DNA from: Elusimicrobiaceae bacterium
GTDB lineage: Bacteria; Elusimicrobiota; Elusimicrobia; Elusimicrobiales; Elusimicrobiaceae
Direction of reading: 5' to 3'
Length of the DNA: 64,000 nt
NCBI GenBank assembly: GCA_016282685.1
Contig: JAEELM010000040.1
Span: 1,267 to 65,266, forward strand
Shown here: piece by piece, positions 26,890 through 48,780 of the stretch
How positions within the stretch are numbered: position 1 is the stretch's first letter
Layout of the letters: each line of letters begins with the position of its first letter
Translations under genes and position numbers: made by a program
The notes under the pieces: model-generated
What the model was told of the DNA's origin: nothing
What the model saw: only the letters and a program-made list of their open reading frames with translations
Database searches by the model: none

Positions 26890-28468
<1,579 letters not shown>

Positions 28469-28531
28469 AATTCCCTCCTCTATCTTGGGGATATAGTGTA
28501 GCAAAAAAAAGAAGTTTTGTCAGCGAAAAAA

Positions 28532-29584
28532 TTATGCAAGTAGTGTATGGACTGCCTTGATGAGGGGTTGAGTGTCAAATTGAGAAAAATCTTCTTTCGT
28601 TAAAAATATTTTAGAAGGGATATTTTGTGGTGCCCATGAATATGCTTCTGGTGTATCTTTATAGAGAGCTACAAGTGGTTTTTGTAGTGCTACCGCTGCA
28701 TGAACGTACATAGTATCGGGCGTGATGAGCAGTAGGCTTTGTTTTAGTGCGGATAAATTGTGGTATAGTCCGAACGAAGATGGCAAAATAATAAGATTAG
28801 ACGGTTTGTTTTTTCCGTTGATAAACGCATAAATTTGTGTGGATTTTCCTAGGAGTACAAAATTGTAGCTTGGAAAAGATGTTGCTATGGCGCATACTTG
28901 CTCCCAGGAAAAACTACGGTGTTTGCTGGCCGCAAAAACATTGAGCGCAATAAAGGGCTTGTAGGAAGATAAAAATTGCTCGGTTTCACGGGATTCTTTT
29001 TCGGGAAAGAACAAATCATAATGAGTATTTGTAAGATCTAGTCCTAATGTGCTTAATAATTTTGCATACCATTGTGTCACGTGGAATGCATCAAAATCAA
29101 GTGGAACGGAAACGTTATAAAGTTTTACTCCCTCCCGGTTGAACCCGAAAGCAAATTTAGGATGCAACAGGCGCAAAAGTAAAAGTGTGGCAGCAGAATT
29201 TTTGCGGTCAAAATCTACAAATAAATCAAAATTTTCTTTGGCGAGTTGTTGCCCTAGCTGAAACATTTGCCAAAGCTTGTTTTCGCCTATGTAAATGTGG
29301 CTGACATAAGGGTTGTGCACGAGTAGTTGGGCACTTGTCGGCCCGGCAATGACGGAGATTTTTGCCTGTGGCAATTGTCTTTTAAGTTCCCGAATTACGA
29401 CGGAGGTGACAATCATATCTCCTAGTTTGTTGTCATTGCGCAAAATAAGAATTTTGCGGAGATCTTGTACTTCTTTTTGAGAAAAAACGTGTGGGTTCTT
29501 TTGATCCAATAATGCGAGGGCTATGCGCCGTTTTTGTTCGCGCAGCCACAGATTTTTTTGACGATTCCACTCGTGAAAATTCAT
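28532..29584 (-). CDS. GT9-family LPS glycosyltransferase
   Basis: ILILRNDNKLGDMIV, ITPDTMYVHAA. Confidence 0.85.
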   Translation of the reverse strand: MNFHEWNRQKNLWLREQKRRIALALLDQKNPHVFSQKEVQDLRKILILRNDNKLGDMIVTSVVIRELKRQLPQAKISVIAGPTSAQLLVHNPYVSHIYIGENKLWQMFQLGQQLAKENFDLFVDFDRKNSAATLLLLRLLHPKFAFGFNREGVKLYNVSVPLDFDAFHVTQWYAKLLSTLGLDLTNTHYDLFFPEKESRETEQFLSSYKPFIALNVFAASKHRSFSWEQVCAIATSFPSYNFVLLGKSTQIYAFINGKNKPSNLIILPSSFGLYHNLSALKQSLLLITPDTMYVHAAVALQKPLVALYKDTPEAYSWAPQNIPSKIFLTKEDFSQFDTQPLIKAVHTLLA

Positions 29585-30594
29585 TTTTTTCTTGCTTCCA
29601 ATAAACGTACGGCTTTTTCAAAGGCTTCATCAACGGACCAATTATCTATTACTTTTACCGGCCCGTTAGCAGAGGTATGTGAGCGAACGGCGGTGGAATG
29701 GTTCCCAATAGGAGAGAATAGTTTGAAATTATAATTGTCCCCGGAATAAAACCCTACAAGCGGGGTTTGATAGGCACAAGCAATATGTACGGGTGCACTA
29801 TCGACAGAAAGACACATATCGACCTGTTTGAGAAGGGCTAAAAATGCTTCTAAATCTTGTTTTCCAGTATAAGTAAAAGATCCTTCCAACGGATATTCTT
29901 CCGGCAAAAACGGAAGAATAAAATGACAATGCGTGTGTTGGTGTAATTTGTTAAGCATCTCGCTCAGTAATGTTCTATCCACTTGCCGGTCTGTGCCAAA
30001 AGGACAAACTAAAATGTTAGGCACGTTCGGTTGAAAAAACGCTTTTACACGGGCTAACGCTTCTGGCGAGGGATTCGTTAGAGTATAAGAGGGCGTTTGG
30101 GCATTTATATGCGGCGCAAAAGGAGTAAGAGCTAAACTTTTGCTTAAATGAGTAGCGGCTAAATTGGGAACATAAAAGTTGTAATTACGGACGGTATTTG
30201 CATTGTAATGTTTTTTCGTTTTTTTCTCAAAGCAAATGGTGTACGAAGGAGCTAAGAAAAAATCAAATAAAATGGTTTTTGATGTAAAAGAGGATTGGTA
30301 ATCAATAAATATTTGGTATTTCCCGCAATGGGTAATGGCCGTCAAAAGGTTATTGGGTAGAATTTCGTCAACAAACGGAATGTGCTTCAGAATTGAGCGA
30401 TTGCGTGGAGTGGACAGAATGCCTAATTTACAGTTGGGATACGCCTTTTTTAGCTGCTTAAAAGCAGCTGATAAGACAACGCTGTCACCTAATCCAGATC
30501 CAATTGGACGAATAAGCACGGAACGAATATTTTTCCAATCTATATTTTTGGCACTGGGCGTGTGGGCAAATAATTTAGCAAATAGTTTTTTCAT
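29581..30594 (-). CDS. GT9-family LPS glycosyltransferase
   Basis: GSGLGDSVV, LSVDSAPVHIA. Confidence 0.85.
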   Translation of the reverse strand: MKKLFAKLFAHTPSAKNIDWKNIRSVLIRPIGSGLGDSVVLSAAFKQLKKAYPNCKLGILSTPRNRSILKHIPFVDEILPNNLLTAITHCGKYQIFIDYQSSFTSKTILFDFFLAPSYTICFEKKTKKHYNANTVRNYNFYVPNLAATHLSKSLALTPFAPHINAQTPSYTLTNPSPEALARVKAFFQPNVPNILVCPFGTDRQVDRTLLSEMLNKLHQHTHCHFILPFLPEEYPLEGSFTYTGKQDLEAFLALLKQVDMCLSVDSAPVHIACAYQTPLVGFYSGDNYNFKLFSPIGNHSTAVRSHTSANGPVKVIDNWSVDEAFEKAVRLLEARKK

Positions 30595-31949
30595 AAAGAG
30601 ACGTGTTGCTTTACAAATTCTTTAATAAGGGCGGTTGTTCTTTGCAACTCTTCCTTTCCTAACGCCGGAAAAGTGCCCACCCAAAACGTGTGATTCATAA
30701 TAAAATCTGTTTGCGGTAAAAGCGCGTATTCTTTTTCCGTTAGACGACTCGAATGGAGAATTTGAGAATTTCCAATGCGCAGTGCGATATCGTTATCCAC
30801 AAAGGCGGGTTGGCGCAGTAAATTGCCGGCAAAAAGTTGGCGTGTACCGACCCCCTGTTCTTCCAGAAATTCTACCAGTTGTTGTTTGGTAAAGGGAGCC
30901 CCTTCTTTGACAGAAATTAAAAACCCGAACCATGAAGGTTTTGTATTTGTGGTAATCTTCGGCAAGATGAGATAATCTTGTAAATCGGTTAAGTTCTTTG
31001 TTAAATACGTCGCATTTTGTGCACGTTTTTCTAAAAATCGTGGCAATTTTTTGAGTTGGCTTACACCGAGTGCGGCCTGCCAGTCGGTAATTTTTAAATT
31101 AAATCCTAAGTGAGAATAAGTGTATTTATGGTCATAGCCAAAGGGAAGATTTCCCAACTGCATTTTAAAACGGTTTTTACAAGTATTATCTGTTCCGGGT
31201 TTGCACCAACAATCGCGTCCCCAATCGCGCAAAGATAAGATAATGCGGTGAAGTTGAGGGTCATTCGTTACGATGGCGCCCCCCTCCCCCATGGTAAGGT
31301 GATGGGCCGGATAAAAACTAAAAGTGCCGATATGCCCAATAGTACCGGCTTTTTGGCCCTTCCATTCTGCACCTAATGCGTCGCACGCGTCTTCAATCAG
31401 CCACAAATTATGTTTTTTGCAAATGGCTAATACAGCGTCCATATCAAACATATTGCCCAGAGTATGGGCTACAAAAACGGCTTTTGTTTTTTGGCTTAGG
31501 GCTGCTTCGATTTGCGCCGCGTCGATATTATAGGTGCCAACTTCACAATCTACAAATACCGGAATTAACCCGTATTGAATGATGGGGCTTACGGTCGTAG
31601 GAAAACTGGTGGCAACGGTAATGACTTCGTCCCCTTTTTGAAGCCGCTTTTCCCCCAGTTTCGGTGAGGTCAGCGCTGCCAGCGCGAGTAAGTTGGCTGA
31701 CGAGCCAGAGTTGACCGTGTGCACAAACCGGATACCTAAAAATTGAGCAAACTCGTTTTCAAATTGGTCACTAAACCGGCCAGACGTAAGCCACATGTCC
31801 AAAGAGGCGTCAATCATGGCCATTAAATCTTCCTCATCTAACAATTTACCTGACGGAGGAATATATTTTAATTCTTGCTTTTTGCCATGTACCTGTTTAT
31901 AGTAATTACGGGCGGCTTGTTTAACAGCTTCTCTTAATTCTTTTTCCAT
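30591..31949 (-). CDS. rfbH: CDP-4-keto-6-deoxyglucose 3-dehydratase (E1, DdhC/RfbH)
   Basis: NSGSSANL, EDACDALG, SFYPAHH (His in place of the aminotransferase Lys), GRDCWC..G.DNTC Fe-S motif. Confidence 0.95.
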   Translation of the reverse strand: MEKELREAVKQAARNYYKQVHGKKQELKYIPPSGKLLDEEDLMAMIDASLDMWLTSGRFSDQFENEFAQFLGIRFVHTVNSGSSANLLALAALTSPKLGEKRLQKGDEVITVATSFPTTVSPIIQYGLIPVFVDCEVGTYNIDAAQIEAALSQKTKAVFVAHTLGNMFDMDAVLAICKKHNLWLIEDACDALGAEWKGQKAGTIGHIGTFSFYPAHHLTMGEGGAIVTNDPQLHRIILSLRDWGRDCWCKPGTDNTCKNRFKMQLGNLPFGYDHKYTYSHLGFNLKITDWQAALGVSQLKKLPRFLEKRAQNATYLTKNLTDLQDYLILPKITTNTKPSWFGFLISVKEGAPFTKQQLVEFLEEQGVGTRQLFAGNLLRQPAFVDNDIALRIGNSQILHSSRLTEKEYALLPQTDFIMNHTFWVGTFPALGKEELQRTTALIKEFVKQHVSL

Positions 31950-33007
31950 TTAATACTCGTTGAATAATCATTAATTTGTTGTAAAGAAAAGGCGCGCATG
32001 TCTGTCTTGCCTTCATAAAATTTTTGATACCACTCTATTGTTTTTTTGATAGCATCTTTGACCGTATAGGTGGGCTGCCAACCCAAAGTTTCTTTTGCCT
32101 TAGTGATATCCAGCATTAGTAAATTAGCTTCATGTAAGCTGTCTTTATGGGAAATTCTTACAGTACCTTTTCCGTAGTTTTGAATAACCAAATTTGTTAC
32201 TTCTTCCACCGTGAGGACACTATCCGTGCAAGGCCCTAAATTAAACTCTTCTGCGTATTTTTTACCTTTGGTATAGAGTAAGTACCCCAAAAGTAAATAT
32301 CCGCTTAATGGTTCCAACACGTGTTGCCAAGGGCGTGTAGCCTGCGGACTACGAATGACAATTTCCTGCCCTTTTTCTATACTGCGTACGCAATCGGGAA
32401 TCAGGCGATCTGTGGCCCAATCTCCCCCTCCGATTACATTTCCTGCCCGTGCAGTGGCCAGCGAGAAACTGCCCGGTTCTTGCAGAAAAGAACGACGGTA
32501 AGAAGAAGATAAAATTTCTACACAGCCTTTAGAAGAAGAATACATATCGTATCCCCCCATGGGATCTCCTTCTTTATAACCCTGAGATACTTCTTTGTTT
32601 TCATAACACTTGTCGCTTGTGATATTTACGAATGCTTTTACGCTTTTACAACGGCGGGCTGCCTCCAGTACTTTGAGGGTACCAATTACGTTCGTTTCAT
32701 ACGTCAATACCGGTTCTAAGTAAGAGAGGCGTACGAGCGGTTGGGCAGCTAAATGAAATATAATTTCCGGTTGAAATTCGGTAAAAACTCGGTTAAGATG
32801 AGTAGAATCCAAGATATTCCCCTCATGATGGGAAATTTCTTGTCGTATTTGAATGGCTTGAAACAGAGAAGGAGTTGTGTTGGGTGCAAGTGAGTAGCCG
32901 CATACTTCGGCCCCGAGTGCCTTTAGCCACAAAGTAAGCCATCCACCCTTAAAGCCAGTATGTCCCGTAACAAGAACACGTTTCCCTTTATAGCTATCTC
33001 TCCACAT
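31934..33007 (-). CDS. rfbG: CDP-glucose 4,6-dehydratase
   Basis: VTGHTGFKGGWL, HLAAQPLVRLSY, TSDKCYEN, YSSSK, ARAGNVIGGGDW, RPWQHVLEP; start uncertain (33007, 33019 or 33049). Confidence 0.95.
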   Translation of the reverse strand: MWRDSYKGKRVLVTGHTGFKGGWLTLWLKALGAEVCGYSLAPNTTPSLFQAIQIRQEISHHEGNILDSTHLNRVFTEFQPEIIFHLAAQPLVRLSYLEPVLTYETNVIGTLKVLEAARRCKSVKAFVNITSDKCYENKEVSQGYKEGDPMGGYDMYSSSKGCVEILSSSYRRSFLQEPGSFSLATARAGNVIGGGDWATDRLIPDCVRSIEKGQEIVIRSPQATRPWQHVLEPLSGYLLLGYLLYTKGKKYAEEFNLGPCTDSVLTVEEVTNLVIQNYGKGTVRISHKDSLHEANLLMLDITKAKETLGWQPTYTVKDAIKKTIEWYQKFYEGKTDMRAFSLQQINDYSTSIKWKKN

Positions 33008-33009
33008 AG

Positions 33010-33786
33010 TTAATCCCATTTTTTCCAAGGGGCTTTGCCGGATTGCCAAAGTTGGGTTAATTGGTTTTTATCACGCAATGTGTCCATAGATTGCCAAAAA
33101 CCATCATGTTTGTAAGCGTGGAGCTGCCCATCTTTAGCTAGCGTTTCCAGAGGAGTGCGTTCAAAAGTGACTTGGTCTCCTTCCCCGATATAATTTAAAA
33201 CTTGTGGTTCGCAAACAAAGAAACCTCCATTAATCCAAGCACCATCTCCCTTAGGCTTTTCCATGAAAGCAGAAACGGTATTGTCTTGATCCATGGTCAC
33301 TGCCCCAAAACGTCCAAAGGGTTTTACTACCGTAACTGTAGCTAATTTTCCGGCAGTTTCATGTGATTTTATTAGATCATGAATATTTACATCACTTACC
33401 CCGTCTCCATATGTGAGCAAGAAACGTTCTCCGTTAATATATTCTTTGGCTTTTTTAATACGGGAACCGGTCATAGTGTCTTGCCCGGTGTAGAGCATGG
33501 TTATTTTCCAAGGTTCTTGTCGCATTTTATGAATAGATACGGTGTTAGTGGCTAAATCAACCGTTAGATCTGAATATTCTTGGTAATAATTTACAAAATA
33601 ATTCTTAATCAGGTGAGATTTATACCCTGTTAAAATAATAAAATCATTAAAACCATAATACGAGTAAGATTTCATGATATGCCATAAAATCGGGCGATTG
33701 CCAATTTCTACCATCGGCTTAGGTTTTAAAACAGTTTCCTCACTTAAACGAGATCCTAATCCTCCGGCTAAAATTAATACTTTCAT
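33010..33786 (-). CDS. rfbF: Glucose-1-phosphate cytidylyltransferase
   Basis: LAGGLGSRLSEET..KPKPMVEIG, TYGDGV, WINGGFFV, GFWQSMDTLRDK. Confidence 0.96.
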   Translation of the reverse strand: MKVLILAGGLGSRLSEETVLKPKPMVEIGNRPILWHIMKSYSYYGFNDFIILTGYKSHLIKNYFVNYYQEYSDLTVDLATNTVSIHKMRQEPWKITMLYTGQDTMTGSRIKKAKEYINGERFLLTYGDGVSDVNIHDLIKSHETAGKLATVTVVKPFGRFGAVTMDQDNTVSAFMEKPKGDGAWINGGFFVCEPQVLNYIGEGDQVTFERTPLETLAKDGQLHAYKHDGFWQSMDTLRDKNQLTQLWQSGKAPWKKWD

Positions 33787-33828
33787 ATTTGTAAATTCCC
33801 CCTCCATTATGGTTATTTTAATAAAGAA

Positions 33829-34770
33829 TTAAAAATTAATGCGTTCTTTTTCAATTACGGCCGGACGCTTTAATACTTGTGTAAAGATGGCCCCGATATA
33901 TTCTCCTAAAATACCTAAAAAGAATAATTGTACCGAAGAAAAAAACAAAACTCCTAATAACAAAGGGGCAGTTCCCATAGGGAAACGATTCCAATAGATA
34001 AGTTTTAATATCAAGTAGATGATACCTAGAATAAAACTAATCAAACTAAGAATAAAACCTCCAAATGCGGCCAGACGCAAAGGTACTTTAGTATGATTGG
34101 TAAATCCTATCATGGCGTTATCGTAAAGCGTGTAGAAGTTATTTTTGGTAAATCCACGCGTGCGTGAAGGTTGTGTAAACGGAACAAGAGCTTTAGGATA
34201 TCCCAACTCACATACGAGCCCGCGGATGTAGGGATAAGGATCGTTCAATCGGCGGATTTCTTCGATTACTTCTCTGTCAAATAGACCAAACCCAGTGCAG
34301 TTATTGGTCAGCTCGGCGCCCGAATCGTTTAACCAGCCTAAGAGTGTATAATACAATTTGCGTGCAATAGCAAAGAACCACTCCTCTTGAGTTTTTGTTT
34401 TTTGAGCCAAAACCACTTTGAAACCTTCTTCCCATTTTTTCAGAAAGTCTCCAATGAGTTCCGGTGGGTCTTGAAGATCGGATGCCATGTAAATAACAGC
34501 ATCTCCCGTTCCTTGCAACATTCCATGATAGGGAGAACGAATATGTCCGAAATTCCGTGTGTTGATAATTACTTTAAAATTTTTATCTTCTTTAGCAATC
34601 TGGCGCAATTCTTCTTGAGTATTATCGGTAGAACCATTATCCAAAACGATTTGTTCATAGTCATATTTTTCTGCGTGTTTGGCCATTTCTGCTTTGACAC
34701 GGGTATAAAGCTCACGAATATTCCCTTCTTCGTTATAGGCACTGGAAATGACAGATATTCTTTTCTTCAT
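33829..34770 (-). CDS. GT2 polyprenol-phosphate glycosyltransferase (GtrB/ArnC-like)
   Basis: YNEEGN, DNGSTD, RNFG, DLQDPPE, GFGL.DR, two C-terminal TMs, LGILGEYIG..F..V..RP. Confidence 0.9.
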   Translation of the reverse strand: MKKRISVISSAYNEEGNIRELYTRVKAEMAKHAEKYDYEQIVLDNGSTDNTQEELRQIAKEDKNFKVIINTRNFGHIRSPYHGMLQGTGDAVIYMASDLQDPPELIGDFLKKWEEGFKVVLAQKTKTQEEWFFAIARKLYYTLLGWLNDSGAELTNNCTGFGLFDREVIEEIRRLNDPYPYIRGLVCELGYPKALVPFTQPSRTRGFTKNNFYTLYDNAMIGFTNHTKVPLRLAAFGGFILSLISFILGIIYLILKLIYWNRFPMGTAPLLLGVLFFSSVQLFFLGILGEYIGAIFTQVLKRPAVIEKERINF

Positions 34771-36569
34771 TTAGACCTCTTTTCTTCGTTGGAGTGAAAT
34801 TTGGTTTTTTTAAATTCATTACGATCTAAAAATGGAAACATATCTTCCAAATCAGGACTGACCAGGGTCCCGTTTGATAATTTGCGTGCGGAAAGTTTTG
34901 GAGAAAACGTGTAATCGGAGGTGCAATCTAATTCACACACAAAAGGCCCTTTTGTGGATAATACTTTTTTTATTCCTTTTTCTACGTCTTTATTTTTTGC
35001 GATACGCATTGCAGACAACCCAAAAGCTTTGGCTACCTGTACAAAATCTGGAACTTCTACGCCACTACTTGCGTTGCAGCCAGTTAAACGGCCGTTGAAA
35101 AAATTGCGTTGCGTTTGGATAATGGAAATATATTCACCGTTTTTAATAATAAAAATTTTGATGGGTAATTGAAGAGTTTTAAGCGTTTGTAACTCTTGAA
35201 TATTCATCATAATACTACCGTCTCCTTCCAGACAAACGGTTTCTTTTTTACCATTGGCCAGGCAGGCTCCCATTGCGGCAGGAAGGCCATAACCCATGGA
35301 GGCATTACCGGAGTTAGAAAAAGTACGTTGTCCTTTTTTATGAGGAAAAGCTTGTAAGAAAGCAACACAAGAGGTTCCGTTAGAAGTTACCAACGTAGTT
35401 GAGGAGGGTAATATTTCCCCTAGTTTTTGCATAAAGAAATAGGGATGAACTTTATCGTTGGCACGTACGCTAAATTCCCGTAAGGGAGGAAATTGCCGTC
35501 GTAAATGTTGGCAATGTGCCAGCCAGCCTTTAGCGCCTAAAGGGTTGGGTAGCAAACGGACAAGCTTTGGAAGTATATCTTTTAAATCTCCACAAATGGC
35601 CAAATCCGGACAGATTGTTGGTTTTTTCAGTTCAGCAGGGTCAATATCTATCACAATCTTCTTGGCATTTTTAGCGTAGTTTTCCCAGTTGTAGCTGATT
35701 TGGCGAATATTGTTACGAGTACCCAAAAATAAAATTACATCGGCATTTTGCAACGTAAAGTTGCCTGCCCGTTGGCCTACTGTTCCGATATGTCCGGCAA
35801 AACAAGGATTTGTGTCTTCGATTAAATCGATTCCGTTAAAGGTAGTAACAACCGGTATTTTGGTCTGAATAAGCAATTTTTCCAATTCCTTTTGCATATT
35901 ACTTAAACGCACGCCATGACCTGCCACAATGAGCGGTTTTTTAGCGTTTTGTAACCATTTAGCGGCCTTTTTAAGGGAAGAAGATAAATTGGTTTTTTTT
36001 GTTTTTTTAGGTATAAATTTTCTGAGTTTTTTAGGATCTATCAAAGCGGCTTGAATGTTAATTGGAATATCTATCCATACCGGGCCGGGGCGCCCGTTGG
36101 TGGCTTGATAAATGGCTTCCTCTAAAACCTTATCAATCTCATTAGGATCTGTTATCATTTTGGCATATTTGGTAAGTGGCGTTACTACGCTGACAATGGG
36201 GGCTTCCTGATCTCCCAATTGCCTTAGTGGCAGTTGTGGGCAACTGGCCAAAGTGGTGGAAGTTTTTACCTGTCCGGAGATAAACAATACAGGCGCGCTG
36301 TCTGTCCATGCTCCAAACACACCGTTGAGGCAATTGAGGCCACCGGGTCCCGTGGTTACGCAAGCGACTGCCAGTTGGTTATTCCGGCGGGCATATCCTT
36401 CGGCCGCTAGAGAAAGAGCCTGTTCATTGTGTGGAAAGATTTTAGCAATCTTTTTACTTCTCCCAAAACTATCGTTCAGATGCATAGCACCGCCACCTGT
36501 TACCATAAATACATGGCGTATACCGTGATCTTCCAATTTTTTTACCACATAGTCCGATAGTTTTATCAT
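34767..36569 (-). CDS. ThDP-dependent acetolactate-synthase-like enzyme (YerE-like)
   Basis: HVFMVTGGGAMHL, HNEQ (catalytic Glu), TTGPG, SGQV, SMGYGLPAA, GDGSIMMNIQEL...N ThDP motif; sits in a sugar-nucleotide cluster. Confidence 0.88.
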   Translation of the reverse strand: MIKLSDYVVKKLEDHGIRHVFMVTGGGAMHLNDSFGRSKKIAKIFPHNEQALSLAAEGYARRNNQLAVACVTTGPGGLNCLNGVFGAWTDSAPVLFISGQVKTSTTLASCPQLPLRQLGDQEAPIVSVVTPLTKYAKMITDPNEIDKVLEEAIYQATNGRPGPVWIDIPINIQAALIDPKKLRKFIPKKTKKTNLSSSLKKAAKWLQNAKKPLIVAGHGVRLSNMQKELEKLLIQTKIPVVTTFNGIDLIEDTNPCFAGHIGTVGQRAGNFTLQNADVILFLGTRNNIRQISYNWENYAKNAKKIVIDIDPAELKKPTICPDLAICGDLKDILPKLVRLLPNPLGAKGWLAHCQHLRRQFPPLREFSVRANDKVHPYFFMQKLGEILPSSTTLVTSNGTSCVAFLQAFPHKKGQRTFSNSGNASMGYGLPAAMGACLANGKKETVCLEGDGSIMMNIQELQTLKTLQLPIKIFIIKNGEYISIIQTQRNFFNGRLTGCNASSGVEVPDFVQVAKAFGLSAMRIAKNKDVEKGIKKVLSTKGPFVCELDCTSDYTFSPKLSARKLSNGTLVSPDLEDMFPFLDRNEFKKTKFHSNEEKRSK

Positions 36570-36570
36570 C

Positions 36571-37653
36571 TTATAATCCGCGTTCTTCAATAAGCCTTTT
36601 TAGCGCCTTATTATGAGCGTAAGGGCAGTCTATTTGTGAAATTTTAATTGGATCGTCTTTTTTAATATCTTCTAAAAGTACTTCTCCCCGCATTAATTCA
36701 CGGCAGGAAATCTGCCCTTTTTGTAAGGGAATGGCTAAATAAACATCTTCGTCGGTTAATTTATGCCCCTTTGGTAAATCCCAACGAGCGTAAACGCCCC
36801 TTACCAGTGCGTCTAAATACGTAATTTCTTTGCGTGGAGCGATATTTTTAGAGGTTGCACTATGCCCACAAAGGATGACGGCCTTTTGATAAGCTTTGAT
36901 CCAGCGGTCTATATCTTCGGGTAGGGAGCAATAGTCGGATATAGGGATATCGTCAGCCTGAATATCAATATGACGCTCAAAAGTACGTGCGCCTTTCGCA
37001 TAGGCGATTAGCATAGAACTTTCCAAATCGTCATTTAACTCATGCGTAGAAAAACCAATGATATGATCTGGGTAACGATTCTTTAAAAAGTCAATTTGAT
37101 TGAGTTCCAATTCTGATTTTTCAGAAGGATAAATACTGACACAATGGTTGATAGCCAATGGAATATTACGGTGTTCAAAGAAAGTAACCAAATCATCAAT
37201 GTCTTTGAGCGAACTTCCTCCTGTCGATACAATAACCGGCTTACGGGTAGTAGCGATCTTTTCAATAAGAATCCAATCGTTTAAATCTGAACTGGCAATT
37301 TTGATGATATCAATGCCCAATTTTACGCAATTGTCTACGGATACTTCATCAAAGGGAGTGGCCATGGGGATGCAATTATTTTGGCGGATAGCATCCACAA
37401 GAATTTGGTAATCTTTGATGTCCATTTGAGTGGCAACGGTTTTTTTAATGTAACGAATATCTTGACGATTTTTAAAATCTTTATGAATAAATGTGGGAAC
37501 ATTGCGGAATTGCAATTTGATAGCAGCACGTACATTATTGAAACGAACAATTTTGGCAAAATCTTCGATAATACGGATGCCGCGTTCCCGTTTACCCCAG
37601 TGATTGTTGGCTAGTTCTAAAACAAATAAATCTTCGAATATTTTGTTTTTCAT
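36571..37653 (-). CDS. NeuB/SpsE-family PEP-dependent synthase with C-terminal SAF/AFP-like domain
   Basis: ELANNHWG, IKLQ, TPFD, KIAS, STG, HCVSIYP, GFSTH, ERH; RGVYARWDLPKG. Confidence 0.85.
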   Translation of the reverse strand: MKNKIFEDLFVLELANNHWGKRERGIRIIEDFAKIVRFNNVRAAIKLQFRNVPTFIHKDFKNRQDIRYIKKTVATQMDIKDYQILVDAIRQNNCIPMATPFDEVSVDNCVKLGIDIIKIASSDLNDWILIEKIATTRKPVIVSTGGSSLKDIDDLVTFFEHRNIPLAINHCVSIYPSEKSELELNQIDFLKNRYPDHIIGFSTHELNDDLESSMLIAYAKGARTFERHIDIQADDIPISDYCSLPEDIDRWIKAYQKAVILCGHSATSKNIAPRKEITYLDALVRGVYARWDLPKGHKLTDEDVYLAIPLQKGQISCRELMRGEVLLEDIKKDDPIKISQIDCPYAHNKALKRLIEERGL

Positions 37654-37670
37654 GTATTTTCCTCTGTGGT

Positions 37671-38558
37671 TTATTTATCTGTTAAGAGTAATTGTCTATC
37701 CAGTAAGTTCTGATGCATTCTATAATAATTAAAAAGCTTTTCTATAGCAGTTTCAAGAGGGGTAAACGAAAGTTGGGGCATTTCTTCTCTTAAACGAGCA
37801 TTGCTGCCGGAATAATTAAGGCCATACCCTTGTTTGGCTACTTGGATAGGATTGTTCTTCCTCCCGATCTTTTGCACTTGTTTTGCCACATCTAACAGCT
37901 CGGTTTCGGTGTCAGGAGTGATGTTATAGGTTTTGTGTTTCGTTTTATTTTCAATAAAAAACTCTAAAATGGGCATTAAATCTTCGACATATAAATAACT
38001 AAAACGACGGTTTTGACGTAGCGTAATCGGTAACCCAAAGAGTGTTTTGCAAATTGCGTTAGAAATAAAACGGATTTCCCAATCTTCTTGAGGACCAAAA
38101 ATACCAAAAATATTAAGATCCACTACGTCGGGCAGATGCTTGATTCGTTGATGAATAACGTACTTGCAAAAACTATGGTCATCTTGCCCCATATGGCTAC
38201 CGATTTGGTCTTCAGTTACCAAACGATTGTCCGCAGCTATATCATAAACGGCACCACTGCCAAAATTAATCAATTTTCCAAATTTATCTTTATGACGAAC
38301 CAAATTTTCGAACATGCGTACGTTGGTATAAAACAAATTTGTAGGGTCTTTCGCGTTGCGATGGCCGGGTTTTGTGGCAGCATGAAGAACCACATCAAAT
38401 TGATGTGTTTGGAAGTAACTATCTACTTGTGTGGTATCGGCAAGGTTTAACTCAAAACTTCTAGGGGCAACCAAATCATATTTTTGGGCCAAAAAACTTT
38501 TTAAGATATTTTTGCCAATAAAACCGTTACCACCGGTAAGTAAAATGGTTTTCTTCAT
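37671..38558 (-). CDS. Extended SDR NAD-dependent epimerase/reductase
   Basis: LTGGNGFIG, GSGAVY, IFGIFGP; the catalytic YxxxK reads HSFCK. Confidence 0.88.
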   Translation of the reverse strand: MKKTILLTGGNGFIGKNILKSFLAQKYDLVAPRSFELNLADTTQVDSYFQTHQFDVVLHAATKPGHRNAKDPTNLFYTNVRMFENLVRHKDKFGKLINFGSGAVYDIAADNRLVTEDQIGSHMGQDDHSFCKYVIHQRIKHLPDVVDLNIFGIFGPQEDWEIRFISNAICKTLFGLPITLRQNRRFSYLYVEDLMPILEFFIENKTKHKTYNITPDTETELLDVAKQVQKIGRKNNPIQVAKQGYGLNYSGSNARLREEMPQLSFTPLETAIEKLFNYYRMHQNLLDRQLLLTDK

Positions 38559-38587
38559 ATATTTTGTATTGTAGCAAATAATAATAG

Positions 38588-38612
38588 AAAAAACCCCGCC
38601 GAAGCGGGGTTT
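38588..38612 (-). terminator. Terminator of RND operon (UUCG tetraloop)
   Basis: Minus strand AAACCCCGC-TTCG-GCGGGG-TTTTTT. Confidence 0.9.
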
Positions 38613-45051: not shown

Positions 45052-45924
45052 CTATTTACGCTGTAACAACTTTTTTAGATAATCATAGTAGTTGTTCGAA
45101 GGAACGTTTTGAAGTTGAGTTGCTAATTGCTTTTTGGTAATGAATTTTTTAGCCAGTGCAATTTCTTCTAAACAGGCAATTTCTATTCCTTGGTTAATTT
45201 GCATAGTATAGACGAAATTAGAGGCTTCCAATACGCTTTCATGAGTGCCGGTATCTAACCAAGCGAAACCACGATCTAGGCAAAAAACATGTAAAAGATT
45301 TCGTTCTAAATAAAGGCGGTTTAAGTCTGTTATTTCTAATTCTCCGCGGCTGGAAGGCTGGAGGGTTTGGGCCAGTTGAACAACTTGGTTATCGTAAAAA
45401 TATAACCCGGTAACAGCAAAATTACTGCGCGGATTTTTTGGTTTTTCTTCCAATGAAATGGCTGTTCCCTTTTTATCAAATTCAACAATTCCAAATCGTG
45501 TGGGATCATTAACTTCGTAGGCAAAAACAGTCGCTCCGGTAAAAGGTTGTTGGGTGGCCTGGGAAAGGAGTGCCTCAAAACCACTTCCGTAAAAAAGATT
45601 ATCCCCTAGAATGAGAGCACAGGCGTCTTTCCCTATAAATTCTTTTCCTAAAATAAAAGCATCCGCAATGCCACGTTTAACCTGTTGAGAAATGTAAGAA
45701 AGTTGTATCCCCCATTGGTGTCCGTCTCCTAGGACACGTTTAAAATTTTCGTTATCATTTGGAGTGGTAATAATGAGAATTTCCCGAATGCCCGCTTGCA
45801 TCAGTACAGACAGCGGGTAATAAATCATGGGTTTATTATAAACGGGCAACAAAATTTTAGAGATGGGCAGAGAGGCTGGATATAAGCGTGTACCGGCCCC
45901 ACCGGCTAAAATAATTCCTTTCAT
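45052..45924 (-). CDS. rfbA: Glucose-1-phosphate thymidylyltransferase
   Basis: GIILAGGAGTRLYP, KPMIYYPL, LILGDN, SLEEKP, RGELEITD, WLDTGT. Confidence 0.96.
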   Translation of the reverse strand: MKGIILAGGAGTRLYPASLPISKILLPVYNKPMIYYPLSVLMQAGIREILIITTPNDNENFKRVLGDGHQWGIQLSYISQQVKRGIADAFILGKEFIGKDACALILGDNLFYGSGFEALLSQATQQPFTGATVFAYEVNDPTRFGIVEFDKKGTAISLEEKPKNPRSNFAVTGLYFYDNQVVQLAQTLQPSSRGELEITDLNRLYLERNLLHVFCLDRGFAWLDTGTHESVLEASNFVYTMQINQGIEIACLEEIALAKKFITKKQLATQLQNVPSNNYYDYLKKLLQRK

Positions 45925-46373
45925 AGTTTATCTCCATATTGTTGTTTTATTTTTTTTACGGCTGCCGTTACAGTTTCGCATAATATTTCGGCTTGCTTTA
46001 TGAAAGAACGCCCCTCCAGAGAAATAGGATCAATGAGGTCTTTTTCTTTATCGTAAGCAAAGTCGTATAGCAGATATAACTTATCGGTATATTGAGCATA
46101 GCGATCCAGCAACCGCTCCAAATGTATTTTTTCCATGCAAAAGATTAAATCTGCATTTTTTAAATCATCAGCAGATAACTGGGTGGAATGATGTTGAACG
46201 TTTTCAATTCCTTTAGAAGATAAAAAGGAAGATACTTTTGACGGAACATTATAGGCCGCATTTGCATAAAGCCCTCGTGAAAATACTTGGACAGTGGGAA
46301 GAAGTTGTTGGCATAACCTTTCCGCCATAAAACTCCGACAAATATTTGCATGACAAATAAATAGTATTTTCAC
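45921..46373 (-). CDS. Low-molecular-weight protein tyrosine phosphatase (Wzb-like)
   Basis: CHANICRS CX5R loop, DP acid loop; GTG start. Confidence 0.88.
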   Translation of the reverse strand: MKILFICHANICRSFMAERLCQQLLPTVQVFSRGLYANAAYNVPSKVSSFLSSKGIENVQHHSTQLSADDLKNADLIFCMEKIHLERLLDRYAQYTDKLYLLYDFAYDKEKDLIDPISLEGRSFIKQAEILCETVTAAVKKIKQQYGDKL

Positions 46374-46408
46374 ATTAAATACTATAGCAAATTTTATAAA
46401 ATATCTTT

Positions 46409-48046
46409 ATGAATTTATTTTTCAGGATGAGTGTTGTCTTATTATTAGGTTTTGTTGTCTTTGCATTTGCAGGTACAGACCCGTGGGCTTTTTCTGTTTT
46501 GCAGTATGGTATGTTTGCGTTAGCCCTGGGATACGTTTTTACGACAAAGACATTGTACATCACTCGTCCGCTCAAAATTATTTCAAGCTTATTGTTATTT
46601 TTGATAGGGTTGGCACTTATACAAAGTTTGTTCCCACGCACTTTGTTAGATAGCGTTGCTTTCTTCCCTTTCACCGTGCTACGGTTACATACATTGGAAG
46701 TGGCTTCTTTGTTATTAACGTACTTGATATGGACGTGGTTGATTGTTCAGTTATTTCCTTCTTTTACAAAAAGCAATCACTTAATCTTGTGTACGGTATT
46801 TATTGGAGTAGCTGTTGTCCTGTGTGCGTGTGCTCTTCCCAAAAGTGATTATATGTTTCGTCTTGTGGGGATTCGCTCCGGCTTTGGTCCGTTTTTAAAT
46901 CGTAACCACGCCGGAATATTTCTAGCCATGAGTTCTGTTGGGGTATTGTCTTTCTTGTTCGCATCTTATATTCAAAACAGAAAGCAGCTATTTGCCCCGC
47001 AAAAACAATCTTTTTATATGAGGCATTTATGTTTGCTCCTCATTTTCGTGGGGCTCTGTTCGGGAACTGTTTTTACGCGTTCCCGGGGAGGAATGCTATC
47101 ATTAGCCGTTGGAATTTTTACATATTCTTTTTTATGCTTTTGGGTGGTCCCTCCTAAGTTAAAAAAACGTTTAAAGGGGTGGTTTTTTACATTGTTGGCA
47201 CTGGTGTTAGTATCGGGGTGGGTGGCCACCCATGTGCCGGAAATCAATGCTTTTGCCCAACGTGCTACCAACACATCAGAAATGACACGGAAGATGTTTT
47301 ATCGTTCTTCTTTCCGTGCTTTGAAAGAATCTCCCTATTTTGGCTGGGGGTTGGGTACAACCCCGTTAGTAATACATAATTATTTTGAATGGCCCATTAA
47401 AAAGTATGTAAATCATTTACATTGTGATTGGCTGGAAATTTTATTGGAAATTGGATGTTTGGGAGCGGGAGTAGTATTACTGTTTATGGGTTGGCTGGCT
47501 TTATTTATGTTACGTAACCTAAAAAAATTGGAGACGAAAAAACAGCTGGTTTACAGTGGCTTAATAAGTGTAATGACGGTTATGTGCGTGGGAAGTTTGT
47601 TCGATTTTGATTTTTTTATTCCGGCTAATGCCTGTTTATTCTTTTTAACATTGGGAATTGCGTGTAATCCTTCTTTCAATAAAAAAACGGTGCAAATAAT
47701 ATCATTAAATTGGATAAAACGGATTTTGTTGGTAGGGATATGTGTGGCTGCGGTATGGATTCCTACAAGCAAAACGATTGCTTGGCGGTTGATGTGGCTT
47801 GGTAAGGGAATGAAACATGATACAAAAATTTTTGCTTACGAAGAAGCAGTAAGTTATTATCCTAGTCCTCGATATGCTGTTTACCTGGGAATTGCCTATT
47901 ACAATGCCGGAATCCATAGTCACAATACGGAATTACGGTATGCTTATTGGCGTCAGGCAAAAAGGGTAGCAGAAACTTATCTTAAAAAATACCCTAAAGA
48001 CAAAGAACTTTCCCAACTTTACATGCGTGTGTATAACTTGGATTAA
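46409..48046 (+). CDS. O-antigen ligase/polymerase-like (Wzy_C) membrane protein
   Basis: About 12 TMs, GPFLNRNH, TRSRGG, FGWGLG, HLHCDWLE. Confidence 0.85.
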   Translation: MNLFFRMSVVLLLGFVVFAFAGTDPWAFSVLQYGMFALALGYVFTTKTLYITRPLKIISSLLLFLIGLALIQSLFPRTLLDSVAFFPFTVLRLHTLEVASLLLTYLIWTWLIVQLFPSFTKSNHLILCTVFIGVAVVLCACALPKSDYMFRLVGIRSGFGPFLNRNHAGIFLAMSSVGVLSFLFASYIQNRKQLFAPQKQSFYMRHLCLLLIFVGLCSGTVFTRSRGGMLSLAVGIFTYSFLCFWVVPPKLKKRLKGWFFTLLALVLVSGWVATHVPEINAFAQRATNTSEMTRKMFYRSSFRALKESPYFGWGLGTTPLVIHNYFEWPIKKYVNHLHCDWLEILLEIGCLGAGVVLLFMGWLALFMLRNLKKLETKKQLVYSGLISVMTVMCVGSLFDFDFFIPANACLFFLTLGIACNPSFNKKTVQIISLNWIKRILLVGICVAAVWIPTSKTIAWRLMWLGKGMKHDTKIFAYEEAVSYYPSPRYAVYLGIAYYNAGIHSHNTELRYAYWRQAKRVAETYLKKYPKDKELSQLYMRVYNLD

Positions 48047-48771: not shown

Positions 48772-48780
48772 GAATGATTT

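What the first reader, a model, noticed from the sequence alone, without database searches (positions are those of the whole stretch)
30591..38558. Probable branched-chain 3,6-dideoxysugar pathway with an added NeuB-like step
RfbF, RfbG and RfbH make CDP-4-keto-3,6-dideoxyglucose. In Yersinia pseudotuberculosis the ThDP enzyme YerE adds a pyruvate-derived C2 branch and an SDR reduces it to yersiniose; both gene types are here. A PEP-dependent NeuB-like synthase (atypical GFSTH in place of G.SDH) and a GtrB-like polyprenol-P transferase are also present. Together they suggest an extended higher-carbon branched sugar attached through a lipid carrier, which would be a novel surface glycan for this lineage.
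Basis: partly seen in the sequence, partly recalled or inferred. Interest (0 to 1): 0.62.

Follow-up and report, generated by a model that had tools for sequence, protein, structure and literature searches.

The report
Branched dideoxy-sugar operon, NeuB-like donor synthase
A rumen Elusimicrobiaceae bacterium carries a compact operon that most likely builds a cytidine-activated 3,6-dideoxy sugar with a long carbon side branch. A sialic-acid-synthase-like enzyme sits exactly where sister species carry the pyruvate aldolase that known pathways of this kind use to make the branch precursor.

Summary
The genes are real and correctly identified. The operon reads SDR, NeuB-like synthase, YerE-like ThDP enzyme, GtrB-type GT2, RfbF, RfbG, RfbH, two GT9 genes and cdd. 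It lies on the minus strand between two strong terminators (38612-27983).

The ThDP enzyme is not acetolactate synthase. It groups with JanthE, a characterised YerE-like carboligase, and away from true AHAS, and the genome has no ilvC or ilvN.

The NeuB-like gene lies next to a YerE-like gene in 73 of 80 loci from at least 12 phyla. In sister species of this genus, an HpcH/HpaI aldolase occupies the same slot between the SDR and ThDP orthologs. Aldolase- and NeuB-linked ThDP enzymes interleave on the tree. One MAG holds both alleles, with ThDP genes 97% identical.

So the NeuB-like enzyme most likely makes, from PEP and an aldehyde, the 4-hydroxy-2-oxo acid that the ThDP enzyme grafts onto CDP-4-keto-3,6-dideoxyglucose. 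This follows the published scheme for erwiniose and caryophyllose. The GT2 probably loads the sugar onto a polyprenyl phosphate.

This is a new variant of a known pathway. It is widespread (at least 487 species) and had already been flagged in other windows of this scan. No biochemistry supports it yet.

The parts
38591..38612 (-). Intrinsic terminator of the upstream TetR-TolC-MFP-RND efflux operon. It marks the 5' boundary of the sugar operon.
   Evidence: Stem of 9 bp with 6 G-C pairs, followed by a T run. The sequence was read directly.
38568..38576 (-). Promoter-like extended -10 element (TGcTACAAT). The SDR ATG at 38558 starts 10 nt after its last base, so the mRNA is probably leaderless or nearly so.
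   Evidence: Read directly from the sequence. This is a consensus match only; no transcript data were obtained.
37671..38558 (-). Extended SDR, 295 aa. It is the putative YerF-like reductase of the branch ketone. The YxxxK motif reads HSFCK here.
   Evidence: Pfam Epimerase, 80 bits. The closest PDB matches are weak, 44 bits at best. His replaces the catalytic Tyr in this subclade, while other members of the same family keep Tyr. Orthologs lie directly upstream of the donor-synthase slot in sister species.
36571..37653 (-). NeuB-like PEP-dependent synthase of the 3g8r type, 360 aa. Its proposed role is to make the 4-hydroxy-2-oxo (3-deoxy-2-ulosonic) acid donor.
   Evidence: - PF03102 at 126 bits plus a SAF domain.
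- It scores far below the NeuB and PseI equivalog cut-offs: 111 against 400 and 108 against 340.
- Best PDB match is 3g8r at 224 bits, against 85 bits for NeuB.
- The His204 and His228 metal ligands are kept, as are K46, K118, Y175 and E226; the position of NeuB Arg314 is Ile.
- Relatives are 67-96% identical across at least 12 phyla.
34767..36590 (-). YerE-like ThDP carboligase. The likely true start is the ATG at 36569, one base after the NeuB-like stop codon, which gives 600 aa.
   Evidence: - Three TPP domains.
- All AHAS equivalog models score below cut-off, for example TIGR00118 at 365 against 538.
- Best PDB match is JanthE (8rph) at 373 bits, against 263 for the best AHAS.
- On the tree it sits in a clade with JanthE (SH-aLRT 100), apart from true AHAS of the same genomes.
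- The start codon context was read.
33829..34770 (-). Polyprenyl-phosphate glycosyltransferase of the GtrB/ArnC/PgfS type (GT2), 313 aa.
   Evidence: PF00535. NCBIfam PgfS at 182 bits and ArnC at 124 bits, both below cut-off. Full-length match to GtrB (5ekp) at 170 bits, then ArnC. Two C-terminal transmembrane segments. A homolog is present in 32 of 53 fully flanked loci.
33010..33807 (-). RfbF/DdhA, glucose-1-phosphate cytidylyltransferase.
   Evidence: TIGR02623 at 388 bits, over the cut-off of 300.
31934..33049 (-). RfbG/DdhB, CDP-glucose 4,6-dehydratase.
   Evidence: TIGR02622 at 478 bits, over the cut-off of 278.
30591..31949 (-). RfbH/DdhC (E1), CDP-6-deoxy-L-threo-D-glycero-4-hexulose 3-dehydrase.
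   Evidence: NF011936 at 681 bits, over the cut-off of 423. It carries C189-X57-C247-X-C249-X7-C257 and FYPAHH, with His at the usual Lys position. That these are the E1 hallmarks rests on my own knowledge.
29581..30594 (-). GT9-like glycosyltransferase a, 337 aa. A lineage-specific addition.
   Evidence: PF01075 at 45 bits. The gene is absent from the collinear locus of a related species, L007, and from the other 79 loci.
28532..29584 (-). GT9-like glycosyltransferase b, 350 aa. A lineage-specific addition.
   Evidence: PF01075 at 41 bits. Absent from L007. A homolog 38% identical ends the aldolase-type cluster of sister species G062 (L123).
28016..28504 (-). Cytidine deaminase, the last gene before the terminator.
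   Evidence: TIGR01354 at 139 bits, over the cut-off of 114. In L007 it follows RfbH directly.
27983..28001 (-). Intrinsic terminator marking the 3' boundary of the unit.
   Evidence: Stem of 7 bp with 6 G-C pairs, followed by a T run.

Best explanation
The operon most likely makes a CDP-activated, acyl-branched 3,6-dideoxyhexose with a side chain longer than C2, and passes it to a lipid carrier.

Proposed steps:
1. RfbF, RfbG and RfbH convert glucose-1-phosphate and CTP to CDP-4-keto-3,6-dideoxyglucose. The family assignments are shown. The electron donor for E1 is unknown, because no E3 gene exists in the genome.
2. The NeuB-like enzyme condenses PEP with an aldehyde, either an aldose or an aldose phosphate whose identity is unknown. 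The product is a 4-hydroxy-2-oxo (3-deoxy-2-ulosonic) acid. This step is inferred.
3. The YerE-like ThDP enzyme decarboxylates that acid and adds the acyl anion equivalent to C4 of the keto sugar. Family membership is shown; the substrates are inferred.
4. The SDR reduces the branch ketone, as YerF does. This step is inferred.
5. The GtrB-type GT2 transfers the sugar from CDP to a polyprenyl phosphate for attachment outside the cytoplasm. The enzyme type is shown; the substrate and acceptor are inferred.

The two GT9 genes are a recent add-on of unknown role.

My step-wise odds are:
- about 0.8 that the product is an acyl-branched 3,6-dideoxy sugar made through a YerE-like enzyme;
- about 0.65 that the NeuB-like enzyme supplies the donor acid;
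- about 0.55 that the sugar travels by the lipid-carrier route.
For: **The ThDP enzyme is YerE-like, not AHAS**
- JanthE scores 373 bits against 263 for the best AHAS.
- On the tree it forms a clade with JanthE at support 100. True AHAS from the same genomes forms a separate clade at support 97.
- The genome has no ilvC, no ilvN and no second ThDP paralog.

**The NeuB-like and ThDP genes are coupled**
- They are neighbours in 73 of 80 loci from at least 12 phyla, and in 51 of 53 loci that have at least 6 kb on both sides.
- In this window the NeuB-like stop codon and the ThDP ATG are one base apart.

**The pair is tied to the CDP-dideoxy pathway**
- RfbH lies within the flank in 40 of 80 loci.
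- Of 23 genomes whose locus lacked RfbH in the flank, 21 carry it elsewhere above the curated cut-off. None of 14 control genomes does.
- In 201 Elusimicrobiota genomes, ThDP and RfbH co-occur 70 times (Fisher p = 8e-28).

**The seven most conserved neighbour families are exactly this operon's seven genes**.

**The donor-synthase slot is interchangeable**
- In sister species of the same genus, an HpcH/HpaI aldolase lies between the SDR ortholog (67-75% identical) and the ThDP ortholog (54-74% identical), where this window holds the NeuB-like gene.
- All 21 NeuB-like genomes and all 33 aldolase genomes carry the ThDP enzyme. Only 2 genomes carry both (odds ratio 0.085, p = 2e-4).
- On the ThDP tree the two kinds interleave, with at least 4 switches forced by well-supported branches.
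- In MAG G209, two allelic contigs carry ThDP genes 97.3% identical in DNA. One sits beside the aldolase and the other beside the NeuB-like gene.

**Published biochemistry fits the aldolase role**
- An HpcH/'aldolase-citrate lyase' family aldolase (MMAR_2331) is the partner of the YerE-like MMAR_2332 for caryophyllose.
- The YerE-like enzyme ErwE, whose own partner is a BphI-like pyruvate aldolase (ErwI), accepts 4-hydroxy-2-oxo acids, including one prepared with the HpcH-type aldolase HpaI, and rejects pyruvate (PMC9306805).

**The NeuB-like enzyme looks catalytically intact, with a different sugar pocket**.

**Accessory genes suit a free aldose or aldose-phosphate substrate**
- A HAD phosphatase occurs in 17 loci and an FGGY kinase in 14.
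- A second NeuB-like type is fused to a cupin resembling D-lyxose isomerase, and it too sits with ThDP, GT2 and RfbFGH.
Against: - There are no biochemical data for any member of this NeuB-like clade or for this ThDP subclade. The aldehyde substrate is unknown.
- The aldolase/NeuB swap shows equivalence of role. It does not by itself show that the acceptor of the C3 unit is a free aldehyde rather than the keto sugar.
- No E3 reductase is present for E1.
- The SDR has His in place of the catalytic Tyr, so its reductase role is uncertain.
- No GT-C partner for the GT2 lies in the operon. The conserved polytopic neighbour seen in other phyla gave no significant fold match.
- One genome, G110, has the aldolase and the NeuB-like gene in the same cluster.
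- Transcription was not shown.
- Krug et al. 2024 surveyed clusters containing YerE-like enzymes, but I could not read it.
Confidence: 0.6

Rival explanations
1. Reverse order, resembling shewanellose. The NeuB-like enzyme (or the aldolase in sister species) adds the C3 unit of PEP or pyruvate directly to the C4 ketone of the CDP-sugar. The ThDP enzyme then merely decarboxylates the resulting 2-oxo-acid branch, and the SDR reduces the aldehyde to a 2-hydroxyethyl branch.
For: - The aldolase/NeuB swap is equally compatible with this order.
- 4-C-(carboxy-oxo-propyl) sugars such as shewanellose exist (my own knowledge).
- The minimal operon encodes no enzyme that makes a special aldehyde.
Against: - No NeuB-family or HpcH-family enzyme is known to use a nucleotide-sugar ketone as acceptor (my own knowledge).
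- The ThDP enzyme belongs with carboligases that take ketone acceptors, such as JanthE (PMC12188165).
- ErwE was shown to use free 4-hydroxy-2-oxo acids as donors (PMC9306805).
- The HAD phosphatase, the FGGY kinase and the fused sugar-isomerase-like cupin would have no role if the acceptor were a CDP-sugar.
Confidence: 0.12
2. The ThDP enzyme adds a pyruvate-derived acetyl branch as YerE does, giving a yersiniose-type sugar. The NeuB-like enzyme is an additional, later chain-extending step.
For: - YerE uses pyruvate (PMC9306805).
- JanthE and MyGE accept pyruvate among other donors (PMC12247030, PMC9306805).
Against: - An acetyl branch is a ketone and offers no aldehyde for a NeuB-type condensation.
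- The NeuB-like gene replaces an aldolase that acts before the ThDP step in the published scheme (PMC9306805).
- ErwE, an enzyme with an aldolase partner, rejects pyruvate (PMC9306805).
Confidence: 0.1
3. Two unrelated pathways share one operon. The NeuB-like enzyme makes a free ulosonic acid (resembling Kdn, Kdo or sialic acid) that becomes a glycan residue in its own right.
For: The protein belongs to the NeuB family by Pfam. The surrounding window is rich in envelope-glycan genes such as WaaA, Wzy_C, Wza and Wzc.
Against: - No CMP-ulosonate synthetase (NeuA/KdsB type) is among the conserved neighbour families.
- The gene lies next to the ThDP gene in 73 of 80 loci.
- It is mutually exclusive with the aldolase.
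- It scores far below the NeuB and PseI equivalog cut-offs.
Confidence: 0.05
4. The ThDP enzyme is an anabolic or catabolic acetolactate synthase.
For: The highest NCBIfam hits are AHAS models.
Against: - All those hits are below cut-off.
- On the tree the enzyme is separated from true AHAS of genomes that also carry this module.
- The genome has no ilvC and no ilvN.
- The C-terminal tail is shared with JanthE only.
Confidence: 0.01

Closest known systems
Acyl-branched sugar clusters of the 'unifying scheme': erwiniose (ErwE/ErwF/ErwI/ErwJ, Pectobacterium atrosepticum), caryophyllose (MMAR_2331 aldolase with MMAR_2332, Mycobacterium marinum) and gastriose (MyGE/MygI/MygF) (PMC9306805)
   Same: - Genes for CDP-4-keto-3,6-dideoxyglucose.
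- A YerE-like ThDP enzyme.
- An NAD(P)H reductase.
- A dedicated enzyme that makes a 4-hydroxy-2-oxo acid.
- Sister species of this genus carry the same Pfam family of aldolase (HpcH/HpaI, the 'aldolase/citrate lyase' family) as MMAR_2331, in the same slot.
   Different: - In this window a PEP-dependent NeuB-family synthase takes the place of the pyruvate aldolase.
- The conserved transferase is a polyprenyl-phosphate GT2, not an ordinary Leloir glycosyltransferase.
- The product and its branch length are unknown.
YerE/YerF, yersiniose A pathway of Yersinia pseudotuberculosis
   Same: The same acceptor sugar pathway (RfbF, RfbG, RfbH) and the same enzyme family for the branching step.
   Different: YerE uses pyruvate and has no donor-synthase partner. 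This operon encodes a dedicated donor synthase, so a C2 branch is unlikely.
JanthE (Janthinobacterium sp. HH01; PDB 8rph, 8rpi, 8rpj)
   Same: It is the closest solved structure: 373 bits, aligned over residues 8-600 including the C-terminal tail. It is a ThDP carboligase with ketone acceptors and a broad range of 2-oxo-acid donors (PMC12188165).
   Different: It is only 33-39% identical to the NeuB-linked enzymes and falls outside their subclade. JanthE has a CDG ThDP motif where this enzyme has GDGS. JanthE's physiological substrates are unknown.
NeuB / PseI / LegI nonulosonic acid synthases, and the orphan structure 3g8r (Chromobacterium violaceum 'SpsE')
   Same: The fold family, the two metal-binding His residues and the PEP-binding Lys/Ser/Tyr/Glu residues are conserved.
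   Different: - It scores 111 and 108 bits against cut-offs of 400 and 340 for the NeuB and PseI equivalogs.
- The positions of NeuB Arg314, Asn184 and Asp214 are changed.
- The conserved set of neighbour genes includes no CMP-transferase and no amino-sugar genes.
GtrB (Synechocystis sll0501), ArnC and PgfS polyprenyl-phosphate glycosyltransferases
   Same: Full-length similarity, and the architecture of a GT2 domain followed by two C-terminal membrane helices.
   Different: The donor here would be a CDP-sugar rather than a UDP-sugar. No GtrA or GtrC/ArnT-type partner lies in the operon.

Membership tests
YerE-like ThDP carboligases (decarboxylase superfamily) | Three TPP_enzyme domains, the catalytic Glu and a GDG...NN ThDP motif | tested here: met
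   Pfam N, M and C domains are present. The sequence has HNEQ and LEGDGSIMMN.
YerE-like ThDP carboligases (decarboxylase superfamily) | Groups with a characterised member rather than with AHAS | tested here: met
   It forms a clade with JanthE (SH-aLRT 100, branch length 1.21). True AHAS of the same genomes forms a separate clade (support 97). YerE, ErwE and MMAR_2332 themselves could not be included.
YerE-like ThDP carboligases (decarboxylase superfamily) | Genomic association with genes for a 4-keto-deoxy nucleotide sugar | tested here: met
   RfbFGH are in the same operon. In the phylum sample, 70 of 77 ThDP genomes carry RfbH (p = 8e-28).
YerE-like ThDP carboligases (decarboxylase superfamily) | Catalyses addition of a 2-oxo-acid donor to a ketone acceptor | not testable with these tools
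   This needs an enzyme assay.
Biosynthetic acetolactate synthase (IlvB/IlvI/IlvG) | Score above the curated equivalog cut-off | tested here: not met
   TIGR00118 scores 365 against a cut-off of 538, and all other AHAS models are also below cut-off. True AHAS of other genomes that carry this module scores 677-851.
Biosynthetic acetolactate synthase (IlvB/IlvI/IlvG) | Partner genes ilvN and ilvC in the genome | tested here: not met
   No match to TIGR00119 or TIGR00465 in the 91%-complete genome, while 13 to 14 of 14 control genomes match.
NeuB family (PF03102), PEP-dependent aldose condensing enzymes | NeuB domain plus SAF/AFP-like domain, above the Pfam cut-offs | tested here: met
   126 bits against 22, and 26 bits against 21.
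NeuB family (PF03102), PEP-dependent aldose condensing enzymes | Metal-binding His pair and PEP-binding or catalytic residues | tested here: met
   H204, H228, E13, K46, K118, S121, Y175, S202 and E226 align with NmNeuB H215, H236, E25, K53, K129, S132, Y186, S213 and E234. The residue roles rest on my own knowledge.
N-acetylneuraminate / pseudaminate synthase (equivalogs) | Score above the equivalog cut-off, and the Arg that binds the N-acetyl group | tested here: not met
   TIGR03569 scores 111 against 400 and TIGR03586 scores 108 against 340. The position of NmNeuB Arg314 is Ile308.
E1 dehydrase RfbH/DdhC/AscC | Equivalog score, the Cys motif for a [2Fe-2S] cluster, and His in place of the PLP-binding Lys | tested here: met
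   NF011936 scores 681 against 423. The protein has C-X57-C-X-C-X7-C and FYPAHH. The meaning of these motifs rests on my own knowledge.
E1 dehydrase RfbH/DdhC/AscC | Dedicated E3 reductase (AscD/DdhD) as partner | tested here: not met
   No FAD_binding_6 domain anywhere in the genome. No E3-like family appears among the conserved neighbours in the 80 loci.
Polyprenyl-phosphate glycosyltransferases (GtrB/ArnC/DPMS type) | GT2 catalytic domain followed by two C-terminal membrane helices, with full-length similarity to GtrB | tested here: met
Polyprenyl-phosphate glycosyltransferases (GtrB/ArnC/DPMS type) | A cognate GT-C transferase that uses the lipid-linked sugar | tested here: inconclusive
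   - None lies in the operon.
- A 517-aa membrane protein with a YEYDEIF motif and a sub-threshold PMT_2 match sits beside a GT2 paralog on contig C33.
- In other phyla, 17 of 37 GT2 genes have a neighbour with at least 8 transmembrane segments. The model of that family (pLDDT 62) gave no significant fold match.
Acyl-branched sugar gene clusters of Steitz et al. 2022 | A pyruvate aldolase that supplies the 4-hydroxy-2-oxo acid | tested here: not met
   The genome has no HpcH aldolase of this type (G000 has 0 matches). The NeuB-like gene occupies the slot that holds the aldolase in sister species.

The most novel reading that the evidence does not exclude
The 3g8r-type NeuB clade is 67-96% identical across at least a dozen phyla and occurs in at least 487 species. 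On this reading it is not a sialic-acid-type synthase. It is a PEP-driven, irreversible counterpart of the HpcH pyruvate aldolases, and it makes the same class of 4-hydroxy-2-oxo acid for YerE-like carboligases. The two enzyme types are exchanged as cassettes within single species, as seen in G209. This would give a polymorphic surface sugar of 11 or more carbons. In most carriers the sugar would be delivered through a polyprenyl-phosphate carrier and attached outside the cytoplasm.
Probability: 0.45. Interest if true: 0.75.

Novelty: new variant of a known kind. Interest (0 to 1): 0.6.

Why it matters
Long-branched 3,6-dideoxy sugars such as erwiniose, caryophyllose and gastriose are rare, immunologically relevant parts of bacterial envelopes. 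Their biosynthetic logic was worked out only in 2022.

If the present reading holds:
- A large and very conserved branch of the sialic-acid-synthase family gets a new job. That branch includes an orphan crystal structure, 3g8r.
- A second, thermodynamically driven route to the branch donor is added to the scheme.
- Branched higher-carbon sugars are predicted in hundreds of uncultured lineages, including gut Elusimicrobia and Melainabacteria, Accumulibacter and Acidobacteriota. About 38% of sampled Elusimicrobiota would have them.

The within-genus swap of aldolase and NeuB-like cassettes gives a clean natural experiment, and it provides matched enzyme pairs for testing. The enzymes may also interest biocatalysis, because they form tertiary alcohols from functionalised keto acids.

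Tried and rejected
- **RNA evidence.** Two run searches and one read-laying gave only spurious 30-base matches in rumen metatranscriptomes, so transcription of the operon is not shown.
- **Fold of the conserved 506-aa polytopic protein next to GT2 in other phyla.** AlphaFold gave pLDDT 62. The best PDB match was the archaeal oligosaccharyltransferase 3wak at E = 0.03 and TM 0.17, which is not significant. Its GT-C status therefore stays open.
- **Plasmid collection.** No NeuB-like relative was found.
- **Literature.** No paper in the library holds both 'YerE-like' and 'NeuB'. Krug et al. 2024 and Lanza et al. 2024 are not held. The supplement of PMC9306805 is not held, so YerE, ErwE and MMAR_2332 sequences could not be put on the tree.
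- **The review of nonulosonic-acid synthase evolution (PMC8208679).** A term search found no mention of unknown or uncharacterised clades or of SpsE.
- **AHAS reading.** Rejected.
- **JanthE as an ortholog of the NeuB-linked enzymes.** Rejected, because identity is only 33-39% and it falls outside their subclade.
- **GT9 genes as part of the conserved module.** Rejected, because they are absent from the collinear locus L007 and from 79 of 80 loci.

Full report
**1. What is there**

The finding's coordinates cover seven co-directional, tightly packed genes on the minus strand. Curated models name three of them above their cut-offs:
- RfbF, glucose-1-phosphate cytidylyltransferase: 388 bits against 300.
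- RfbG, CDP-glucose 4,6-dehydratase: 478 against 278.
- RfbH, the E1 dehydrase: 681 against 423.

RfbH carries C189-X57-C247-X-C249-X7-C257 and a His at the usual Lys position. From my own knowledge these are the marks of the iron-sulfur, PMP-dependent E1.

The other four genes are as follows.
- An extended SDR of 295 aa.
- A NeuB-family protein of 360 aa with a SAF domain.
- A three-domain ThDP enzyme.
- A GT2 that matches GtrB of Synechocystis over its full length (170 bits). It ends in two membrane helices.

Two strong intrinsic terminators bracket the unit, at 38612-38591 after the upstream RND efflux gene and at 28001-27983. The transcription unit therefore also includes two GT9 genes and cdd.

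An extended -10 element (TGcTACAAT, 38576-38568) lies 10 nt before the SDR start codon, so the mRNA may be leaderless. I found no usable RNA data.

The organism is a rumen Elusimicrobiaceae bacterium. This rests on the titles of near-identical loci and on earlier notes. The genome is 1.42 Mb and 91% complete.

**2. The ThDP enzyme is YerE-like, not acetolactate synthase**

- All AHAS models score below their cut-offs.
- The best solved relative is JanthE (8rph), published as a YerE-like carboligase (PMC12188165). It scores 373 bits over residues 8-600, including a C-terminal tail. The best AHAS scores 263 bits and its alignment stops near residue 566.
- I fetched true AHAS genes (677-851 bits on TIGR00118) from other genomes that carry this module. 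On that tree the window's enzyme sits in a clade with JanthE (SH-aLRT 100), apart from the AHAS clade (support 97).
- The genome has no ilvC, no ilvN and no second ThDP paralog.

YerE itself could not be included on the tree.

**3. The NeuB-like enzyme is bound to the ThDP enzyme**

Its relatives are unusually conserved, at 67-96% identity in at least 487 species genomes from at least 12 phyla. I compared this operon's nine glycan-pathway proteins (all but cdd) with the 80 fetched loci.
- A ThDP gene lies beside the NeuB-like gene in 73 of 80 loci, and in 51 of 53 loci that have at least 6 kb on both sides.
- Among those 53 loci, RfbF is present in 35, RfbH in 33, the GtrB-type GT2 in 32, RfbG in 28 and the SDR in 25.
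- The GT9 genes are present in none.

Clustering all neighbouring ORFs showed that the seven most conserved families are exactly this operon's seven genes. The window therefore holds the minimal core of a widespread cassette.

I then checked 23 genomes whose locus lacked RfbH in the flank. In 21 of them RfbH lies elsewhere above the curated cut-off, against 0 of 14 control genomes.

Accessory genes in other loci include:
- HAD phosphatases (17 loci);
- FkbM-type and other methyltransferases;
- a trio of FGGY kinase, AroB-like enzyme and short-chain dehydrogenase (14 loci).

**4. The key result: a swap with an aldolase**

I sampled 201 Elusimicrobiota genomes.

| Feature | Genomes |
|---|---|
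| RfbH | 89 |
| YerE-like ThDP enzyme | 77 |
| Both RfbH and ThDP | 70 (Fisher p = 8e-28) |
| NeuB-like, this window's type | 15 |
| NeuB-like, fused to a sugar-isomerase-like cupin | 6 |
| HpcH/HpaI aldolase | 33 |

- Every NeuB-like genome and every aldolase genome carries the ThDP enzyme.
- Only two genomes carry both a NeuB-like gene and the aldolase (odds ratio 0.085, p = 2e-4).

In sister species of the same genus the gene order is RfbF-RfbG-RfbH-SDR-X-ThDP. X is the HpcH aldolase where this window has the NeuB-like gene.

Four forms of the slot exist:
- NeuB-like alone (this window and L007);
- aldolase alone (L123);
- dehydrogenase, AroB-like, kinase and NeuB-like (L150 and L149);
- aldolase, dehydrogenase and AroB-like (L151 and L148).

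On a careful tree of the genus's ThDP enzymes, the NeuB-linked and aldolase-linked proteins interleave.
- Well-supported branches force at least four switches.
- No bootstrap tree showed a single origin.
- G177 (NeuB-like) is sister to G157 (aldolase), with support 98/96.

In MAG G209, two contigs share their ends at 94-96% identity and share ThDP genes at 97.3% DNA identity. They differ in the cassette between these shared parts. The exchange is therefore polymorphic within one species-level population.

**5. Mechanism**

The published scheme for long-branched sugars has three steps. A pyruvate aldolase makes a 4-hydroxy-2-oxo acid. A YerE-like enzyme decarboxylates that acid and adds it to CDP-4-keto-3,6-dideoxyglucose. 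A reductase then reduces the branch ketone. ErwE accepts such acids and rejects pyruvate. The caryophyllose aldolase MMAR_2331 belongs to the aldolase/citrate-lyase family (PMC9306805), which is the same Pfam family I found in the sister species.

A NeuB-type enzyme condenses PEP with an aldehyde and gives the same class of product, a 3-deoxy-2-ulosonic acid. This protein keeps the metal ligands and the PEP-binding residues of NeuB. It changes residues that hold the sugar in NeuB, including the Arg that binds the N-acetyl group (residue roles from my own knowledge).

I therefore read the NeuB-like enzyme as the donor synthase. The HAD phosphatases, the kinase and the fused isomerase-like cupin all fit a free aldose or aldose-phosphate substrate. 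The actual aldehyde, and so the branch length, cannot be told from sequence.

The reverse order remains possible but is less likely. In that order the C3 unit is added to the keto sugar first and the ThDP enzyme acts only as a decarboxylase.

**6. After the sugar is made**

The conserved transferase of the cassette is a GtrB/ArnC-type enzyme. The sugar is therefore probably moved to a polyprenyl phosphate and attached on the outer side of the membrane.

No GT-C partner lies in this operon.
- A candidate sits beside a GT2 paralog on another contig.
- In other phyla a conserved polytopic protein follows the GT2. Its predicted fold gave no significant match.

The two GT9 genes are absent from the collinear locus of a related species. 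A homolog of GT9b ends the aldolase-type cluster of another species. The genome has no gmhA, so the GT9 donor may not be ADP-heptose.

**7. Known or new**

The pathway type is known. Use of a NeuB-family enzyme as the donor synthase is not in any paper I could search, but I could not read Krug et al. 2024.

Earlier agents of this scan reached the same reading in at least 40 other genomes. I read those notes after forming my own reading (note), and they are not independent evidence.

What this window adds:
- the minimal seven-gene form of the cassette;
- its frequency in Elusimicrobiota;
- the within-genus and within-species aldolase/NeuB exchange, which is the strongest comparative argument so far for the proposed role.

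Noticed in passing
window 38175-38177 (SDR residue 128): The SDR's YxxxK motif reads HSFCK. His replaces the catalytic Tyr in the Elusimicrobia and Clostridium-type subclade. Melainabacteria-type members of the same family keep Tyr, and one member has Thr.
   Followed up: partly
whole genome G000; window 5440-6975, 28532-30594; contig C15 16964-17749: The genome carries at least four GT9 (heptosyltransferase-like) genes, but it has no gmhA above noise. ADP-heptose may therefore not be made, and these GT9 enzymes may use other donors. The genome is only 91% complete.
   Followed up: partly
G000 contig C33 54457-56757 (L089:637-2190): A second GtrB-like GT2, 31% identical to the operon's, lies beside a 517-aa membrane protein. 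That protein has a YEYDEIF motif after its first helix and a sub-threshold PMT_2 match, so it is a candidate GT-C transferase.
   Followed up: partly
L148 and L149 (G209 contigs C19 and C21): One MAG holds two allelic versions of the same locus. The contig ends and the ThDP gene are 94-97% identical. One version has an aldolase cassette and the other a NeuB-like cassette. This is probably two strains binned together.
   Followed up: yes
Elusimicrobiota sample: Of 89 RfbH-positive genomes, 70 (79%) also carry a YerE-like ThDP enzyme. In this phylum the 3,6-dideoxy pathway seems mostly to feed branched sugars. A further 25 ThDP genomes have neither the NeuB-like gene nor this aldolase.
   Followed up: partly
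G110 contig C5 17882-28282: One cluster carries both the HpcH aldolase and the NeuB-like gene, next to a single ThDP gene. It is an exception to their mutual exclusion.
   Followed up: no
L120 9863-11392; also L121 and L122: A second NeuB-like type, about 40% identical and 509 aa long, is fused to a C-terminal cupin resembling D-lyxose/mannose isomerases. It too sits with ThDP, the GtrB-type GT2, RfbFGH and a C-methyltransferase-like gene.
   Followed up: partly
window 28016-28504: Cytidine deaminase is the last gene of the CDP-sugar unit, and in L007 it follows RfbH directly. This may be a link to salvage of the released cytidine nucleotide, or it may be mere neighbourhood.
   Followed up: no
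window 38556-38576: The promoter-like TGcTACAAT lies so close to the ATG that the first gene would be leaderless. This matches a pattern noted elsewhere in this genome.
   Followed up: partly
L084:12239-13792 and relatives (alignment A2): A conserved polytopic membrane protein of about 500 aa, with no Pfam match and no significant fold match, follows the GtrB-type GT2 in Rhodocyclaceae and other loci.
   Followed up: partly
PMC4275268 (Burkholderia pseudomallei BPSS0419-0428): A published gene list shows rfbF, rfbG and rfbH followed by a GT2 and two tandem 'heptosyltransferases'. The arrangement resembles the tail of this operon.
   Followed up: no
window 5440-8233 and 45052-56213: The window is rich in envelope-glycan genes: WaaA, a 511-aa GT9, AsmA, RmlA, Wzb, a Wzy_C/O-antigen-ligase-like protein, Wza, Wzc, an epimerase and an initiating sugar transferase.
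   Followed up: partly
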